Positions 42,308 to 46,325 of a DNA stretch of 64,000 bases are shown here, in pieces; position 1 is the first letter of the stretch, and every line of letters starts with the position of its first letter. Both the position numbers and the translations under genes were made by a program. The stretch covers positions 3,104,001 through 3,168,000 of the forward strand of contig OZ253470.1 of NCBI GenBank assembly GCA_965261735.1, in the 5' to 3' direction. The DNA comes from Alphaproteobacteria bacterium. GTDB taxonomy: Bacteria > Pseudomonadota > Alphaproteobacteria > SHVV01. Below the pieces are notes generated by a model. That model was not told the DNA's origin. It did no database searches and was given only the letters and a program-made list of their open reading frames with translations.

Positions 42308-43204
42308 TCATGCGCCCGTTCCGGGCTTCGCCCCGCGGCTGGCCAGCCACGTCTCGCAGCAGCCCTTGGCGAGCGCGCGGATGCGGGCGATGTACTGGGC
42401 ACGCTCGGTGACGCTGATGCGCCCGCGGGCATCGAGGAGGTTGAACAGGTGGCTCGCCTTCAAGCACTGATCGTAGGCCGGCAGCGCGAGGTCCGCCCGG
42501 AGCAGCGCGCCGCATTCGTCTTCCGCATCGGCGAAGTGCCGCACCAGCCGGTCCGCGTCCGCATGCTCGAAGTTGAAGGCGGAGAACTCGCGCTCGGACT
42601 GGCGGTACACATCGCCGTAGGTCACGCCCTGGCCGTTCCAGTCGAGATCAAAGACGTTGTCGACCCCCTGGACGTACATCGCCAGGCGCTCGAGCCCGTA
42701 GGTGATCTCGCCCGAGACGATGTCGAGGTCGAGCCCGCCGACCTGCTGGAAATAGGTGAACTGGCTCACCTCCATGCCGTCGCACCACACCTCCCAGCCG
42801 AGCCCCCAGGCGCCCAGCGTGGGGCTCTCCCAGTCGTCCTCGACGAAGCGGATGTCGTGGACACGCGAATCGATACCGAGGTCGTCCAGGCTGTCGAGGT
42901 AGACCTGCTGGATATCCTCAGGTGAGGGCTTGAGGATGACCTGGAATTGGTAGAAGCGCTGCAGGCGGTTGGGGTTGTCGGCATAGCGGCCGTCGGTGGG
43001 GCGGCGCGAGGGCTGCACGTAGGCGGCACGCCAGTGCTCGGGCCCGAGCGCGCGCAGCGTCGTCGCCGGGTGGAAGGTGCCGGCGCCGACCTCGAGGTCA
43101 TAGGGCTGCAACAGTACGCACCCCTGCCCCGCCCAAAACGACTGCAGCTTGAGGATCAGCTCCTGGAACGAGGCGCCGGTGGGCGCGGCGCCAAGCTCGC
43201 TCAC
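42308..43204 (-). CDS. glyQ: Glycine-tRNA ligase alpha subunit
   Basis: [39 protein letters not shown]. Confidence 0.97.
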
Positions 43205-43422
43205 GCCGAGTAGGGGCAGCCGTCGCGCTCACAAGCGGCGGCGGCCGGCGAGACGTAGGCGCTGCACACGGCGCAGCGCTCGAGGTCTTCCGTGACCGCG
43301 GTTGAGCTCCGGCGGAGCCCGCCGCGGGCGCCCGCGCCTGACGAAAGCGTGCGCGACACCAGGCGGTAGCCGTACAACACGGCGGCGATCACCAGTCCGG
43401 TAAAGATGATCTTCCAGATCAT
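43201..43422 (-). CDS. Small membrane protein with C-terminal Cys motif
   Basis: N-terminal TM segment, CAVCSAYV...CERDGCPY; ATGA overlap with glyQ. Confidence 0.75.
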
Positions 43423-43428
43423 GGTCGA

Positions 43429-43457
43429 GGTTTAGAAGGAAGCTCGCAGGCGGTCAA
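43429..43457 (-). promoter_or_regulatory. Candidate sigma70 promoter giving a leaderless orf-glyQS transcript
   Basis: TTGACC-17 nt-TAAACC, 6 nt before ATG 43422, no SD. Confidence 0.5.
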
Positions 43458-43563
43458 GGAGCGCTCCGTCCTTTTTGGCGACATGGCCCTTATGCCGGGG
43501 CCGACGGCGGGTTCGGTCCCGCGGCCCGGCCGCGCGCGCTCCTAACCTGGCGGGCCGCCTTGC

Positions 43564-43586
43564 TCAGGCGAAGCGATAAACCAGCC
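43564..43586 (-). pseudogene. DHFR/RibD-C-like gene, extreme 3' piece
   Basis: Removing the IS110 element restores ...FPCGVV-RLVYRFA-TGA. Confidence 0.8.
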
Positions 43587-43668
43587 TGATGGTATGGACG
43601 CCCCCTACGGCTTCACGATGAGCCATACTGGAGTGTGTTGAACAACCCAGACAGAGGGAGCGTCCACG

Positions 43669-44688
43669 ATGGATATTACGACAATTGGGTTTGATCTGGC
43701 AAAGACGGTGTTCCAGGTTCACGGTGCTGATGGTGAGGGACGACCGGTACTACGGCGGAAGCTGCGCCGCGGGAAGGTGCTGGCGTTCTTCGCCGGATTG
43801 CCATCCTGTCTTGTCGGTATGGAAGCCTGTGCCTCTGCGCACTATTGGGCTCGGGAACTGCAAGCACACGGGCACAAAGTTCAGCTGATTCCGCCTCAAT
43901 ACGTTCGTCCCTTCGTCAAAACGAATAAGAACGACGCAGCGGATGCGGAAGCGATCTGTGAGGCAGTGACGCGTCCGACGATGCGCTTTGCACCGGCGAA
44001 AAGCGCCGAGCAGCAGTCGGTTCTGATGCTGCACCGGGCCCGAGAGCTGTTGGTCCGTCAACGCACGATGGTGATCAATGCGCTTCGCGGCCACTGTGCG
44101 GAGTTCGGACTGATCGTCGCTCAGGGGGCGTCGAAGGTGGAGGAACTGGTTGCCATTATCGAAGATCCCGGCGATGTGCGACTGCCGCCTCTGGCACGCG
44201 AGGCGCTTGGCTCTCTGGTTGAGCAGCTCCGTTCTGCTCAGGCCCGGATCAAGCAGCTGGAAGTGACGCTTTTGGCATGGCACCGCTCCAACGAGGCGAG
44301 CCGCCGTCTTGCGACGATCCCCGGCGTCGGTGTCATCACCGCGACGGCGCTGGTCGCGACGATCGGCGATGGCGCACAGTTCCGCTCGGGCCGACAGCTT
44401 TCGGCCTGGCTCGGTCTCGTGCCCCGGCAGCACTCGAGTGGCGGCAAGGATAGACTGGGACGGATATCGAAGCGCGGGGATGGCTATATCAGGCGCTTGC
44501 TCGTGCATGGTGCGCGAACCGTGCTGCGCTGGCGCCGCGCCAAGCCGGGCACGGGGCCTGGCTGGACCGACCGGCTCCTGGCGCGGCGGCCGACAAACGT
44601 GGTGCTGGTCGCCATGGCCAATAAGGCAGCCCGTGTCGCCTGGGCACTGCTCAGGTACGAGCGTATCTACCGACCGACGCCGGCATAG
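43669..44688 (+). CDS. IS110 DEDD recombinase/transposase
   Basis: GFDLAK, GMEAC, KNDAADAEAI, IPGVG, HSSGGK. Confidence 0.95.
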   Translation: MDITTIGFDLAKTVFQVHGADGEGRPVLRRKLRRGKVLAFFAGLPSCLVGMEACASAHYWARELQAHGHKVQLIPPQYVRPFVKTNKNDAADAEAICEAVTRPTMRFAPAKSAEQQSVLMLHRARELLVRQRTMVINALRGHCAEFGLIVAQGASKVEELVAIIEDPGDVRLPPLAREALGSLVEQLRSAQARIKQLEVTLLAWHRSNEASRRLATIPGVGVITATALVATIGDGAQFRSGRQLSAWLGLVPRQHSSGGKDRLGRISKRGDGYIRRLLVHGARTVLRWRRAKPGTGPGWTDRLLARRPTNVVLVAMANKAARVAWALLRYERIYRPTPA

Positions 44689-44744
44689 CCAGCTGGCAAA
44701 CCGGGATCAAATTGCGAGGGTGACGACGATTTGATGGCGAAACA

Positions 44745-44890
44745 GGGTTCCACCCGAGATCGGCCAAACCCGAGGCATTGTCCGAGCATCAAGCTCGTTA
44801 GTCTGACTGGGCGTCGATCTTTCGGATTCCATCAGGGCCAGCGGTCAGCGTACCGCAGCGAAAAGGCCGGATACATGACTGCAAGCTCTA
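44745..44890 (+). ncRNA. Predicted bridge/seek RNA (boundaries approximate)
   Basis: Two internal loops carrying target-matching (44778-44782, 44798-44807) and donor-matching (44829-44834, 44871-44878) segments. Confidence 0.7.
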
Positions 44891-44940
44891 CCGCCGATTC
44901 AAATCGGTTTTCCCCTTGCAACACCGGGGGCGTCCATACA

Positions 44941-45220
44941 TGACAACGCCACAGGGAAACGACTGGGTTTCTTCCAAGCTCAGCCGCGCGTGGCGCGGGG
45001 ACCTCTCGAAAAGGGGCAGGCCGCTACCAATCAGCACGGGAATCACAAATAGCTCTATCCGATCGACGGCGTCATGGTCGAGGAATGCTCGGATTGTCTT
45101 CGCTCCACCAACGATCCAGACGTCTTCGCCGAGAGCTTTGAGTCGGCTCACCAGAGCCTGAATGCCGTCGTCCGATACTTCCGTATTCTCGGGAGGTGAC
45201 CCGATAGCTCGAGAAGAAAG
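44941..45220 (-). pseudogene. DHFR/RibD-C-like gene, middle piece
   Basis: LSSRAIG...DVWIVGGAKT...IPVLIGSGLPLF. Confidence 0.85.
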
Positions 45221-46325
45221 CTTGCCTATCCGGTTAACGCCCATGACCGCTACATGTAGGGTGCCGCCACTCTCCCGAGTAAAGCTCGGCATAGGTTGGA
45301 GCAGAGGTGTCGCCCGCGATGCCGAGCAATGAGCGGAAGGCGTTGAACGGGTAGAACCGCCTGTTGAAGCGGAAGGTGAACTCGTTGAGGTAGGCTTGTA
45401 GGTGCTGGTGGCTAACGCCGTGGTGGATACCGATCAGCCACGTCTTCAGGTTGGCGAAAACCAGATGGATGATCGGCAGGTATTGCTCGGCAACCTCTGG
45501 ATCACCACACTCGGCAACAGCGAAGTGCTCATAGCCGCGCTTACCGAGGCCAGCATAGCCGCTCCAATCGTCAGTAACGATCAGCGATCGCGGCGCGACG
45601 GTGCTCTCGACGAACCCACAGAGCGACTCGGCGCTACGGTCGAGCACGACGGCGAGCCGAACGCGTCCGGCATAGCGTCCGTCTTTCCGGTTGTCGAGCT
45701 TGGTGCCCGGCTTTCGATGACGCACCTCGATGGCACAGGAGACGGGAACCTTGTGGTGAACACCACGGCCTTCCCCACGCGTTCGCCCGCCAACCCAGGT
45801 TTCGTCCACCTCAACATGGTTCTTGGGCTGTCCACCGATCCTGTCTTGGTTGGGCCGCACCATGCCCGAGCGGAGCTTGTGGAGAATTTGAAAGGCCGTC
45901 TCGTAGCGCGAAAGACCAAGTTGCCGCTGAAACTGCACGGCGGACATGCCGGGCGTCTGACTGGCGACCAGATAAGCGGCCCAGAACCAGACGTTCAGCG
46001 GAGTGTGGCTACGCTCCATCACTGTTCCCACCGTCAGCCCGGTGTTCTGGCGGCACTTGCGGCAGCGCAGGACGCCAGGGCGGTTTTCAAAGTGGAACGG
46101 CTCTCCCGCCGTGCCGCAGTGCGGGCAGGCAAAGCCGTCTCCCCAGCGGGCTTTCTCCAGGTAGGCGGCGCAGGCCGCATCATCGGGGAAAAGTCGCTGG
46201 AACTCGGGTAGCGAATGCGGGAATGGGAGATCGGCGCGGTCGAGAACATCCATGGCGCGCTCCCCTATATCCGGGTTGCGCCCATTCTAGCCCTAGTGGG
46301 TGTGGGTGTAACCCGGATAGCCAAG
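45221..46325 (-). mobile_element. IS1595 element, copy 2 (inverted, 1105 bp)
   Basis: Same ends as copy 1 with one change in the left IR; its flanks match those of copy 3, not each other. Confidence 0.95.
45234..46253 (-). CDS. IS1595 family transposase
   Basis: Translation identical to 9858..10877. Confidence 0.95.
   Translation of the reverse strand: MDVLDRADLPFPHSLPEFQRLFPDDAACAAYLEKARWGDGFACPHCGTAGEPFHFENRPGVLRCRKCRQNTGLTVGTVMERSHTPLNVWFWAAYLVASQTPGMSAVQFQRQLGLSRYETAFQILHKLRSGMVRPNQDRIGGQPKNHVEVDETWVGGRTRGEGRGVHHKVPVSCAIEVRHRKPGTKLDNRKDGRYAGRVRLAVVLDRSAESLCGFVESTVAPRSLIVTDDWSGYAGLGKRGYEHFAVAECGDPEVAEQYLPIIHLVFANLKTWLIGIHHGVSHQHLQAYLNEFTFRFNRRFYPFNAFRSLLGIAGDTSAPTYAELYSGEWRHPTCSGHGR

What the first reader, a model, noticed from the sequence alone, without database searches (positions are those of the whole stretch)
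43587..44943. IS1111-type bridge/seek RNA whose guides can be read against its own donor and target
Seen: the empty target is CCAGCC-TGACAA and the circle junction is CCATACA-TGATGG. In the 3' non-coding end, loop 1 (closing stem GAGATCGGC/GTCGATCTT, inner hairpin CGAGC/GCTCG) has TTGTC (44778-44782, reverse complement of target GACAA) and TTAGTCTGAC (44798-44807), matching CCAGCCTGAC with only C-to-T, G:U-compatible differences. Loop 2 has CCATCA (44829-44834, reverse complement of donor TGATGG) and ATACATGA (44871-44878, identical to donor). Both loops use the same guide order. Known: IS110/IS1111 recombinases are RNA-guided. Inference: an intact programmable recombinase with a predicted target near YYAGYCTGACAA, here inserted at a wobble-matched site.
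Basis: partly seen in the sequence, partly recalled or inferred. Interest (0 to 1): 0.8.

Follow-up and report, generated by a model that had tools for sequence, protein, structure and literature searches.

The report
IS1111-type insertion sequence with guide RNA
This is a mobile DNA element of a known kind that carries its own guide RNA for choosing where to insert, and this copy landed at an imperfectly matching site inside an already broken gene.

Summary
Window 43587-44943 is a 1357-bp IS1111-group insertion sequence. It has a 339-aa DEDD transposase (NCBIfam "IS110 family RNA-guided transposase", 351 bits), 14-bp subterminal inverted repeats and a 255-nt 3' non-coding region.

The host genome holds 12 left and 10 right ends of this element. 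Their flanks converge on GTTAGTC / TG / ACAATGCC, which the two strands of loop 1 match over 11 and 9 nt (0 of 2000 shuffles reach both). Across 32 relatives with many different targets, both target guides and the 3' donor guide follow their own DNA partners. The RNA helices covary (94% of cells paired, 19 of 32 pairs compensatory).

The window copy is an off-consensus insertion. All four left-flank differences are G:U-type and there is one A.C on the right. It sits in the 3' end of a RibD_C gene remnant. DNA contigs of two public runs carry the empty site.

One claim is not established. CCATCA (loop 2, 5' side) shows no partner-specific signal, and it covaries with an internal TGATGG as an RNA helix.

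Verdict: a new member of a known kind, of modest interest.

The parts
43587..44943 (+). Whole insertion sequence (1357 bp counting one copy of the shared TG+A; the boundary is ambiguous by 3 letters)
   Evidence: There are 12 left and 10 right ends of the same element in the host genome. An empty-site joint 43586->44941 is seen in DNA contigs of runs X1 and X2.
43587..43588 (+). Core TG at the left junction (repeated at 44941-44942)
   Evidence: Relatives share only TG between the two junctions (L079 type, L085, L109). A second family in this genome shares CG.
43592..43605 (+). Left subterminal inverted repeat (14 bp)
   Evidence: Exact inverted match to 44926-44939. Conserved in relatives.
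43669..44688 (+). Transposase/recombinase gene, 339 aa, with D9, E52, D89, D92 and S257-G258
   Evidence: Pfam PF01548 and PF02371. NCBIfam NF033542 at 351 bits against a cutoff of 140. The C-terminal domain aligns to the ISCro4 and IS621 structures with the SG motif in register.
44712..44720 (+). 5' strand of a possible long-range closing helix (partner 44913-44921); weakly supported
   Evidence: 79.6% of cells paired and 3 of 9 pairs with changes on both sides.
44732..44737 (+). Internal TGATGG, which has the same letters as the left end of the IS; 5' strand of helix Pa
   Evidence: Pairs with 44829-44834. Paired in 98.6% of cells in A1 and 95.2% in A2, with 2 pairs compensatory.
44756..44764 (+). 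P1, outer stem of the target-binding stem-loop (partner 44813-44821)
   Evidence: 93-94% paired, with 6-7 of 9 pairs changed on both sides.
44769..44771 (+). P2, a 3-bp stem closing the target loop (partner 44809-44811)
   Evidence: 97-99% paired, with 2 of 3 pairs compensatory.
44774..44782 (+). Right-target guide (5' side of loop 1): complementary to the top strand of core G plus right flank
   Evidence: Matches 9 of 9 at consensus sites and 8 of 9 here. 21 of 27 right flanks are exact. It follows its own right flank across relatives: mean longest match 6.88 against 3.94 for non-self partners.
44783..44797 (+). P3 inner hairpin (44783-44787 with 44793-44797)
   Evidence: 3 of 5 pairs compensatory (pairs 184-187 with 198-201).
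44797..44807 (+). Left-target guide (3' side of loop 1): identical to the top strand of left flank + TG + AC
   Evidence: 11 of 11 identical at consensus sites. It follows its own left flank across relatives: 6.31 against 3.88.
44829..44834 (+).
   Evidence: Complementary to left-end bases 43587-43592. There is no partner-specific signal (5.22 against 4.69) and a 6-nt match is at chance level (794 of 2000). It covaries with 44732-44737.
44836..44868 (+). P4/P5 stem-loop between the two donor-side segments (44836-44839 with 44865-44868; 44841-44845 with 44852-44856)
   Evidence: 98-99% paired, with compensatory pairs in P5.
44871..44878 (+). Right-end (donor) guide: identical to the last 5 bases of the IS + TG + first base of the left end (the circle junction)
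   Evidence: Follows its own right end in relatives: 7.56 against 4.43, with self above every non-self partner in 27 of 32 elements. Also seen in families B and C and in an IS4321-family element.
44916..44921 (+). TTGCAA, a -35-like hexamer. After circularisation, 17 nt further on lies CATGAT, which spans the junction
   Evidence: Read from the junction printed. CTTGC is at least 90% conserved. No sigma-70-like site lies on the + strand of the linear IS. Inference only.
44926..44939 (+). Right subterminal inverted repeat
43580..43586 (+). Left half of this copy's target (ACCAGCC)
   Evidence: Against the guide at 44797-44803 it gives 3 Watson-Crick pairs and 4 G:U-type pairs.
44944..44950 (+). 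Right half of this copy's target (CAACGCC)
   Evidence: One A.C mismatch against the guide at 44774-44782.
44944..45219 (-). RibD_C-domain gene remnant interrupted by the IS (its tail is at 43564-43586)
   Evidence: Pfam PF01872, profile positions 120-196 only. Removing the IS in silico restores an open frame that ends 7 codons later. An IS1595-like end lies at about 45220.

Best explanation
Window 43587-44943 is an intact-looking copy of an IS1111-group insertion sequence. It encodes a DEDD/Ser recombinase, and the 255 nt downstream of that gene encode a bridge (seek) RNA.

The RNA folds into a stem-loop (P1-P2-internal loop-P3). The two loop strands read the target on both DNA strands.
- The 5' strand (44774-44782) pairs with the top strand of the core G plus the right flank.
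- The 3' strand (44797-44807) pairs with the bottom strand of the left flank plus the core.

A second segment (44871-44878) reads the right end of the element across the circle junction. Recombination occurs at a TG core.

The preferred site is GTTAGTC / TG / ACAATGCC, found at the edge of a ~40-nt repeat. This copy used a unique-sequence site whose left half pairs only through G:U-type pairs.

Shown here: the boundaries, family membership, guide-target and guide-right-end correspondence, and RNA helices with compensatory changes.

Inferred from the family: the RNA is made (probably co-transcribed with the recombinase from a promoter assembled at the circle junction), it binds the recombinase, and it directs insertion.
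For: Family:
- Pfam PF01548 + PF02371.
- NF033542 'IS110 family RNA-guided transposase', 351 bits.
- The GL-P----SG motif, with D9/E52/D89/D92/S257 present.
- 14-bp subterminal repeats.
- An 82-nt 5' and a 255-nt 3' non-coding end.

Other copies:
- There are 12 left and 10 right ends in the genome.
- In the close group, 21 of 27 right flanks are exactly CAATGCC, 4 differ by one transition, 1 by two, and 1 is unrelated.
- 25 left flanks with a known guide give 128 Watson-Crick, 13 wobble and 34 mismatch cells of 175. This is a hand count.

Chance: against a consensus-site target, the 11-nt and 9-nt matches are reached together by 0 of 2000 shuffles.

Cross-family (32 elements), mean longest match to own partner against non-self partners:
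- 6.88 vs 3.94 (right-target guide)
- 6.31 vs 3.88 (left-target guide)
- 7.56 vs 4.43 (right-end guide)
- Swapped-partner controls: 3.44 vs 3.41 and 3.59 vs 3.60

Structure: 94.0% of 1184 cells are paired against 83.3% in shuffles, 19 of 32 pairs are changed on both sides, 0 of 500 shuffles reach this, and slid controls give 31-45%.

Same scaffold and logic in an IS4321-family element: 10 nt complementary and 7 nt identical to its Tn21-type repeat target, and 7 nt identical to its right end.

Precise insertion:
- Empty-site contigs occur in X1 and X2.
- In-silico removal restores the interrupted reading frame.

Recent activity: 4 other full-length copies encode the same 339-aa protein with 1 difference.
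Against: - There is no direct evidence that the RNA exists or of where it starts and ends. RNA-library contigs (X6, X17) cover the region, but contigs cannot show transcription.
- No circle-junction joint was seen.
- No sigma-70-like promoter lies on the + strand of the linear element.
- Rfam has no matching family.
- The fold of the single sequence is only modestly better than shuffles (z -2.37).
- The window's own flanks match the guides no better than chance by exact matching. The wobble reading rests on the other copies.
- A guide variant (G to A at 44801 in other copies) does not sort with matching sites.
- The long-range closing helix is weak (79.6% paired).
- This copy carries private changes: 1 amino acid, and G at 44906 where all laid contigs and all other copies have A.
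Confidence: 0.9

Rival explanations
1. The 5' segment of 'loop 2' (CCATCA, 44829-44834) is not a donor guide, or not only one. It is the 3' strand of a conserved RNA helix (Pa) with the internal TGATGG (44732-44737). That helix closes a three-way junction around the target-binding stem-loop. On this reading the left end of the element is recognised in some other way, for example by the protein on the subterminal repeat, or by only the 5' part of this segment pairing with left-end bases 3-9.
For: - RNAalifold chose this helix on its own.
- It is paired in 98.6% of cells in A1 and 95.2% in A2. One pair is G-C in 23-24 and A-U in 11-13 sequences. Another takes G-C, C-G and A-U.
- In the sequences that carry A-U, the left end keeps G, so the change is compensated in the RNA, not in the DNA.
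- Families B and C of this genome have CCATAC here and GTAAGG upstream. Read one base out of the alignment register, these pair at 5 of 6 positions. The left end of family C is still TGATGG (my reading of the printed rows).
- In an IS4321-family element, TCATCA pairs 6 of 6 with an upstream TGATGA, while the 6-nt left-end complement found there lies in the P3 loop.
- There is no partner-specific signal for this segment (5.22 vs 4.69), and a 6-nt match is at chance level (794 of 2000).
Against: - The sixth position of the left end (G, C or A in different lineages) is matched by C, G or U in this segment in most lineages. That is not expected for a purely structural strand.
- In locus L112 the segment with its 5' extension is complementary to 7 consecutive left-end bases. 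In the window it is complementary at 8 of 9.
- L097 matches the left end but not the internal strand.
- By symmetry with loop 1, and with IS621, where each loop reads both halves of its DNA (PMC11208158, passages), a guide is expected at exactly this place.
- The compensatory changes probably stem from few evolutionary events.
- The two roles are not exclusive.
Confidence: 0.45
2. This particular copy is a dead or silent relic. The structure is that of an RNA-guided IS, but the copy in the window no longer moves.
For: - It has private substitutions (1 amino acid; G at 44906 against A in every other copy and every laid contig).
- It has no promoter of its own in the linear form.
- No circle junction was seen in contigs.
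- The genome holds several interrupted or truncated copies.
Against: - The reading frame is open and all catalytic residues are present.
- Both ends and both subterminal repeats are perfect.
- The site is still empty in DNA contigs of two runs, which argues for a recent insertion.
- Contigs drop rare forms, so a missing circle junction says little.
Confidence: 0.2
3. The short matches between the non-coding end and the flanks are chance, or a by-product of the inverted repeats, and no RNA guide is involved.
For: - With the window's own flanks alone, exact matches of 5 nt are reached by 1818 of 2000 shuffles.
- The 6-nt donor complement is at chance level (794 of 2000).
Against: - Against consensus sites, 0 of 2000 shuffles reach both matches.
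- The guides change together with the targets across relatives, while swapped-partner controls are flat.
- Compensatory base pairs flank the guide loop.
- The mechanism is established experimentally for the family (PMC11187229 sections 8-10; PMC11208160 passages).
Confidence: 0.01

Closest known systems
IS1111-family seekRNA elements ISEc11, ISPa11, ISKpn4 and ISPst6 (Siddiquee et al. 2024, PMC11187229; sections 6, 8, 9, 10, 13 and 14 read)
   Same: - The transposase is 339 aa, with the GL-P----SG motif.
- There are subterminal inverted repeats.
- The long non-coding region lies downstream of the gene.
[quoted passage not shown]
- Insertion is site- and orientation-specific, into a repeat.
   Different: - The target is different. 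Its preferred site is the edge of a ~40-nt repeat of unknown nature in an alphaproteobacterium.
- No RNA or activity data exist for this element.
- The paper does not describe a donor-reading segment in the sections I read. Its supplementary figures with the long-RNA folds could not be opened.
IS621 bridge RNA (Durrant et al. 2024, PMC11208160, passages; Hiraizumi et al. 2024, PMC11208158, passages; abstract of PMC13626964)
   Same: - The recombinase is a DEDD + Ser enzyme. Its C-terminal domain aligns to 8wt6 at E 4e-11.
- An internal loop reads the left and right halves of the target on opposite strands.
- A second part of the RNA reads the joined ends of the element.
- The core is a dinucleotide.
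   Different: - The RNA lies at the 3' end, not the 5' end.
- The order of the two strand matches is reversed.
- The core is TG, not CT.
- The subterminal repeats are long (14 bp).
- The donor side is not a simple internal loop. Durrant et al. state that many IS1111 members place donor-binding bases in a multi-loop.
IS4321/IS5075 (IS1111 family; they target the terminal repeats of Tn21-type transposons). The title of Partridge and Hall 2003 was seen only in reference lists.
   Same: - The transposase is 42% identical over 98% of its length.
- The non-coding end aligns to the same scaffold.
- The placement of target guides, the upstream TGATGA / downstream TCATCA pair and the right-end guide is the same.
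- It inserts at the edge of a short repeat, in one orientation.
   Different: The target, the ends and the host group (enterobacterial plasmids) are different. It has an extra segment inside P4.

Membership tests
IS1111 group of the IS110 family | DEDD (RuvC-like) N-terminal domain plus the PF02371 C-terminal domain with a conserved S/T-G | tested here: met
   PF01548 at 6.9e-14 and PF02371 at 3e-28. NF033542 at 351 bits. D9, E52, D89, D92, and S257-G258 within GLVPRQHSSG.
IS1111 group of the IS110 family | Subterminal inverted repeats of about 7-17 bp, set in from the ends | tested here: met
   14 bp, exact, starting 5 bases from the left end and ending 4 bases before the right end. Present in relatives. 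The range is taken from PMC11208160 (passage).
IS1111 group of the IS110 family | The longer non-coding region lies downstream of the transposase gene | tested here: met
   82 nt upstream and 255 nt downstream. The criterion is from PMC11187229, section 6.
IS1111 group of the IS110 family | Transposase of about 330-350 aa | tested here: met
   339 aa. The range is from PMC11187229, section 6.
IS1111 group of the IS110 family | Insertion at a specific sequence in one orientation, without a long target duplication | tested here: met
   Flanks of 12 left and 10 right ends and of close relatives. The empty-site joint has only 3 ambiguous letters.
seekRNA / bridge RNA (IS1111 arrangement) | [quoted passage not shown] | tested here: met
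   44774-44782 (top strand) lies 5' of 44797-44807 (bottom strand), and the two overlap in the core. They covary with targets across 32 relatives.
seekRNA / bridge RNA (IS1111 arrangement) | Guides lie in a loop flanked by conserved helices | tested here: met
   P1, P2 and P3 carry compensatory changes.
seekRNA / bridge RNA (IS1111 arrangement) | The RNA is produced, co-purifies with the transposase and is required for movement | not testable with these tools
   The only data are contigs of RNA libraries covering the region, which do not show transcription.
Bridge RNA in the IS621 sense (bispecific) | A donor-binding loop with two guides reading both halves of the joined ends | tested here: inconclusive
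   The 3' guide (44871-44878) follows the right end (7.56 vs 4.43). The 5' candidate (44829-44834) shows no specific signal (5.22 vs 4.69) and pairs with an internal strand.
Bridge RNA in the IS621 sense (bispecific) | Encoded in the left end, upstream of the recombinase; CT core | tested here: not met
   It is encoded in the right end and the core is TG. This is the IS1111 arrangement, not the IS110/IS621 one.
IS110/IS1111 transposition cycle | A circular intermediate whose junction assembles a promoter | tested here: inconclusive
   No junction joint appears in the laid contigs. The junction sequence would place TTGCAA 17 nt before CATGAT (my reading). The concept comes from PMC11187229 sections 8 and 14. 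The title of Prosseda et al. 2006 was seen only in a reference list, and the paper is not held.

The most novel reading that the evidence does not exclude
The bridge RNA of this IS1111 lineage carries an internal copy of its own left end (44732-44737). This copy base-pairs with the presumed left-end guide (44829-44834). The donor side of the RNA would then sit masked in a helix, and would have to be opened by the recombinase or by the DNA end itself before the element's ends can be bound. That would make it a built-in switch on donor binding. It appears conserved from this alphaproteobacterial element to the IS4321 family. A second point is that the natural insertion record here suggests that G:U-type pairs in the left-target guide suffice for off-target insertion into unique genes.
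Probability: 0.25. Interest if true: 0.55.

Novelty: new member of a known kind. Interest (0 to 1): 0.3.

Why it matters
RNA-guided recombination by IS110/IS1111 elements has been known since 2024. It is reported to be predictable in 93% of catalogued IS1111 members (PMC11208160, passage). So the identification itself is ordinary.

The locus does add a small natural data set on specificity.
- About 27 right and 25 left flanks are available for one guide pair.
- The right half-site is nearly invariant and the left half-site is tolerant.
- One insertion into unique sequence pairs on the left only through G:U-type pairs.

That is of some use for predicting off-targets of bridge recombinases.

The conserved helix that ties up the presumed left-end guide is the one feature not described in the text I could read. 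If it is a real switch, it would bear on how IS1111-type RNAs recognise their own ends, which the seekRNA paper leaves open (PMC11187229, section 14).

Tried and rejected
- **Rfam scan of 43300-45300** at E up to 1: no family matched.
- **Empty consensus site in the host genome:** 0 matches with up to 2 mismatches of 21, 3 matches at up to 3 mismatches and 5 at up to 4. One degenerate copy of the target repeat at about 434.7 kb is unoccupied.
- **What the ~40-nt target repeat is:**
  - I first thought it was the terminal repeat of an IS256-like element. This was rejected because that element ends 116 bp before the site.
  - An IS1595-like end was also rejected. That element has roughly 200 copies, while the repeat has 6 at up to 7 mismatches plus one unrelated match.
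  - An integron attC site was considered from the GTTAGTC motif. I dropped it for lack of an inverse core site and because the copies are dispersed (my reading).
  - The repeat's nature is unresolved.
- **Fixed-column comparison of guides and flanks** failed between distant subfamilies, because the register shifts by 1-2 nt. I replaced it with the longest-match test.
- **My first structure string** put P3 one base out of register (helix 5, 25.6% paired). This was corrected.
- **Guide variant test:** copies with A instead of G at the position of 44801 sit at sites with G, A or C there. No single-base reprogramming is visible.
- **Wobble enrichment overall:** 13 of 47 non-Watson-Crick left-flank cells are G:U-type. 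That is about what random choice at G/U guide positions would give. The wobble pairs are concentrated in 5 of 25 sites (hand count).
- **RNA evidence:** RNA-library contigs of two studies cover the element. Depth is also higher at the 3' end in the DNA runs, so nothing can be said about expression. No circle-junction joint was seen.
- **Supplementary files** of PMC11187229 and PMC11208160 were not opened, as they are closed. They may already show folds of long IS1111 RNAs with the helix I call Pa.
- **Literature searches** for a structure of an IS1111-type complex or its donor loop found nothing beyond the IS621/ISCro4 work in the listed titles and abstracts. The searches were 'seekRNA' + 'cryo-EM' (7 papers) and 'IS1111' + 'donor-binding loop' (8 papers).
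Full report
**What is there**

Every string and coordinate in the finding checks out against the sequence. Window 43587-44943 is a 1357-bp element.
- It holds one long reading frame (43669-44688, 339 aa).
- The frame carries the two Pfam domains of IS110-family transposases (PF01548, PF02371).
- It scores 351 bits on NCBIfam NF033542, 'IS110 family RNA-guided transposase', against a cutoff of 140.
- The catalytic D9, E52, D89 and D92 and the S257-G258 of the GL-P----SG motif are present. The C-terminal domain aligns to the solved ISCro4 and IS621 recombinases at E 4e-11.
- A perfect 14-bp inverted repeat lies 5 bases inside the left end and 4 bases inside the right end.
- The non-coding ends are 82 nt on the 5' side and 255 nt on the 3' side.

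These are the defining features of the IS1111 group as set out in PMC11187229 (section 6) and PMC11208160 (passages).

The host genome (5.03 Mb, one contig) holds 12 left ends and 10 right ends of this element. Five copies are full length at 99.6-100% identity, one is at 92%, and several are interrupted or truncated.

The last 7 bases of the 12 left flanks compare with GTTAGTC as follows:

| Differences from GTTAGTC | Left flanks |
|---|---|
| 0 | 3 |
| 1 | 3 |
| 2 | 2 |
| 3-6 | 4, including the window's |

Nine of the 10 right ends are followed by a relative of CAATGCC. Five are exact and four differ by one transition. The tenth abuts an internal part of another copy.

I then added near-identical elements from other genomes.
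- Of 27 right flanks, 21 are exact, 4 have one transition, 1 has two, and 1 is unrelated.
44774-44782 is the exact complement of the core G plus 8 right-flank bases. 44797-44807 is identical to 7 left-flank bases plus TG plus 2 bases.
- Against a consensus-site target assembled from two other copies, no shuffle of 2000 reaches both matches.
- Against the window's own flanks, exact matching gives only 5 + 5 nt, which 1818 of 2000 shuffles reach.

**The window copy is an off-consensus insertion**

- Its left half (43580-43586) differs from the guide at four of seven positions. All four are differences that leave a G:U-type pair.
- Its right half has one A.C mismatch.
- DNA contigs of two public runs (X1 at depth 2.4, X2 at depth 2.7) join 43586 directly to 44941, with 3 ambiguous letters. 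The empty site therefore exists in related genomes.
- Removing the element in silico restores an open frame ending 7 codons later.
- That frame belongs to a RibD_C-domain gene. The gene is also cut at its 5' side next to an IS1595-like element.

I counted all 25 left flanks with a known guide by hand.
- Of 175 cells, 128 are Watson-Crick, 13 are wobble and 34 are mismatched.
- Wobble pairs are not enriched overall. They are concentrated in 5 sites, of which the window is the clearest.
- The right half-site is far more constrained than the left.

**The core**

Relatives share only TG between their two junctions, and a second family in this genome shares CG. The crossover core is therefore most likely a dinucleotide. 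The third shared letter in the window is a coincidence between the first base of the left end and the first base of this flank.

**Relatives and covariation**

A scan of one genome per species confirmed 427 relatives among 593 matched stretches. The best 80 loci were kept, at 56-99% amino-acid identity, most of them from alphaproteobacterial assemblies.

I aligned 36 non-redundant 3' ends. For 32 elements with usable ends, I measured the longest exact match of each RNA segment to its own DNA partner and to the partners of the others.

| RNA segment and DNA partner | Mean longest match, own | Mean longest match, non-self |
|---|---|---|
| Right-target guide vs core + right flank | 6.88 | 3.94 |
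| Left-target guide vs left flank + core | 6.31 | 3.88 |
| 3' donor segment vs right end | 7.56 | 4.43 |
| 5' donor segment vs left end | 5.22 | 4.69 |
| Swapped-partner control 1 | 3.44 | 3.41 |
| Swapped-partner control 2 | 3.59 | 3.60 |

For the 3' donor segment, the own partner scored above every non-self partner in 27 of 32 elements.

The helices are supported independently.
- On 38 sequences, 94.0% of 1184 cells pair, against 83.3% in shuffles.
- 19 of 32 pairs show changes on both sides, and 0 of 500 shuffles reach the observed values.
- Slid controls pair at 31-45%.

An IS4321-family element from a plasmid (42% identical transposase) shows the same scaffold. Its loop strands match its Tn21-type repeat target over 10 nt complementary and 7 nt identical. 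A 7-nt segment is identical to its right end.

**The doubtful part: loop 2, 5' side**

CCATCA (44829-44834) is complementary to the first six bases of the element. However:
- Those bases are nearly invariant in the family, so the segment shows no partner-specific signal.
- A 6-nt match is at chance level.
- RNAalifold instead pairs it with an internal TGATGG (44732-44737). That helix is paired in 95-99% of cells and has two covarying pairs.
- Where the RNA pair has become A-U, the DNA end still has G.
- Two other families of the same genome have changed the last two bases of this segment together with the internal strand, while one of them keeps the same left end (my reading, one base out of the alignment register).

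Against a purely structural role:
- The sixth base of the left end (G, C or A in different lineages) is usually matched by the segment.
- In L112 the segment with its 5' extension is complementary to 7 consecutive left-end bases.

I therefore leave both readings open. They may both hold, with the helix masking the guide.

**How it most likely works**

By homology with the tested IS1111 and IS110 elements, I infer the following.
- The RNA is transcribed with the recombinase gene. No sigma-70-like promoter lies on the + strand of the linear element. The circle junction would place TTGCAA 17 nt before CATGAT (inference).
- The RNA may then be trimmed.
- It is bound by the recombinase and used to align target and joined ends at the TG core.

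No step of this was observed here. RNA-library contigs of two studies cover the element, but that does not show transcription.

**Comparison and verdict**

The element meets every testable criterion of the IS1111 group and of the IS1111-type seekRNA. It does not meet the IS621-type layout, which has a 5' location and a CT core. The two-guide donor loop is only half supported.

It is a new member of a known kind. The points of modest interest are:
- the natural specificity record;
- the wobble-only left half-site of this copy;
- the conserved helix that involves the presumed left-end guide. I did not find this helix described in the main texts I read. The supplements were closed and may show it.

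Noticed in passing
window 45220-46253 (- strand), and genome-wide: An IS1595-family element (339-aa ISXO2-like transposase with zinc ribbon) lies about 280 bp to the right of the IS and cuts the 5' part of the same RibD_C gene. Its end sequence recurs roughly 200 times in the 5-Mb genome, and an IS256-like element at least 35 times. The genome is extremely dense in insertion sequences.
   Followed up: partly
host genome about 2942630-2944364 (loci L003/L012): One copy (bases 1-1356) is followed directly by bases 977-1357 of another copy. This is a partial tandem whose junction does not resemble the target. It may result from insertion into a sister copy followed by deletion, or from recombination at a pseudo-site.
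   Followed up: no
host genome 418 kb, 1989 kb, 3802 kb, 4287 kb, 4340 kb and 4455 kb: The preferred target lies at the edge of a ~40-nt repeat of unknown nature. All 6 copies found at up to 7 mismatches are occupied by this IS (a 7th match looks unrelated). One degenerate copy at about 434.7 kb is empty. Two occupied copies lie about 640 bp downstream of a serine-recombinase-like reading frame.
   Followed up: partly
host genome, e.g. 3689046-3690425 (family B, 14 near-identical copies listed) and 4173238-4174615 (family C, 5 copies): Two further IS1111-type families have the same RNA scaffold but other ends and targets. Family B uses a CG core.
   Followed up: partly
window 44809 (run X17, RNA library): One contig joins about 255 unrelated letters to window position 44809 onwards. 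Those letters end in a sequence that looks like an uninterrupted target: a relative of the left half, then TGA, then the right half (table 7). I have no explanation.
   Followed up: no
window 43673-43702 (- strand): The only sigma-70-like match in the region (TTGCCA, 18 nt, TAATAT) points outward across the start of the transposase gene towards the left end. ISPpu9 has an antisense RNA at a similar place (PMC12288879, passage). A single consensus match is not evidence.
   Followed up: no
window 42308-43204 (- strand): The 298-aa reading frame to the left of the element reads like the alpha subunit of glycine-tRNA ligase. This is my recollection of the protein's look and was not tested. It appears intact and is not touched by the insertion.
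   Followed up: no
locus L050: In one relative, the left end is replaced by an inverted copy of the right end plus the right half of the target, giving a 25-bp perfect inverted repeat. It was left out of the counts.
   Followed up: no
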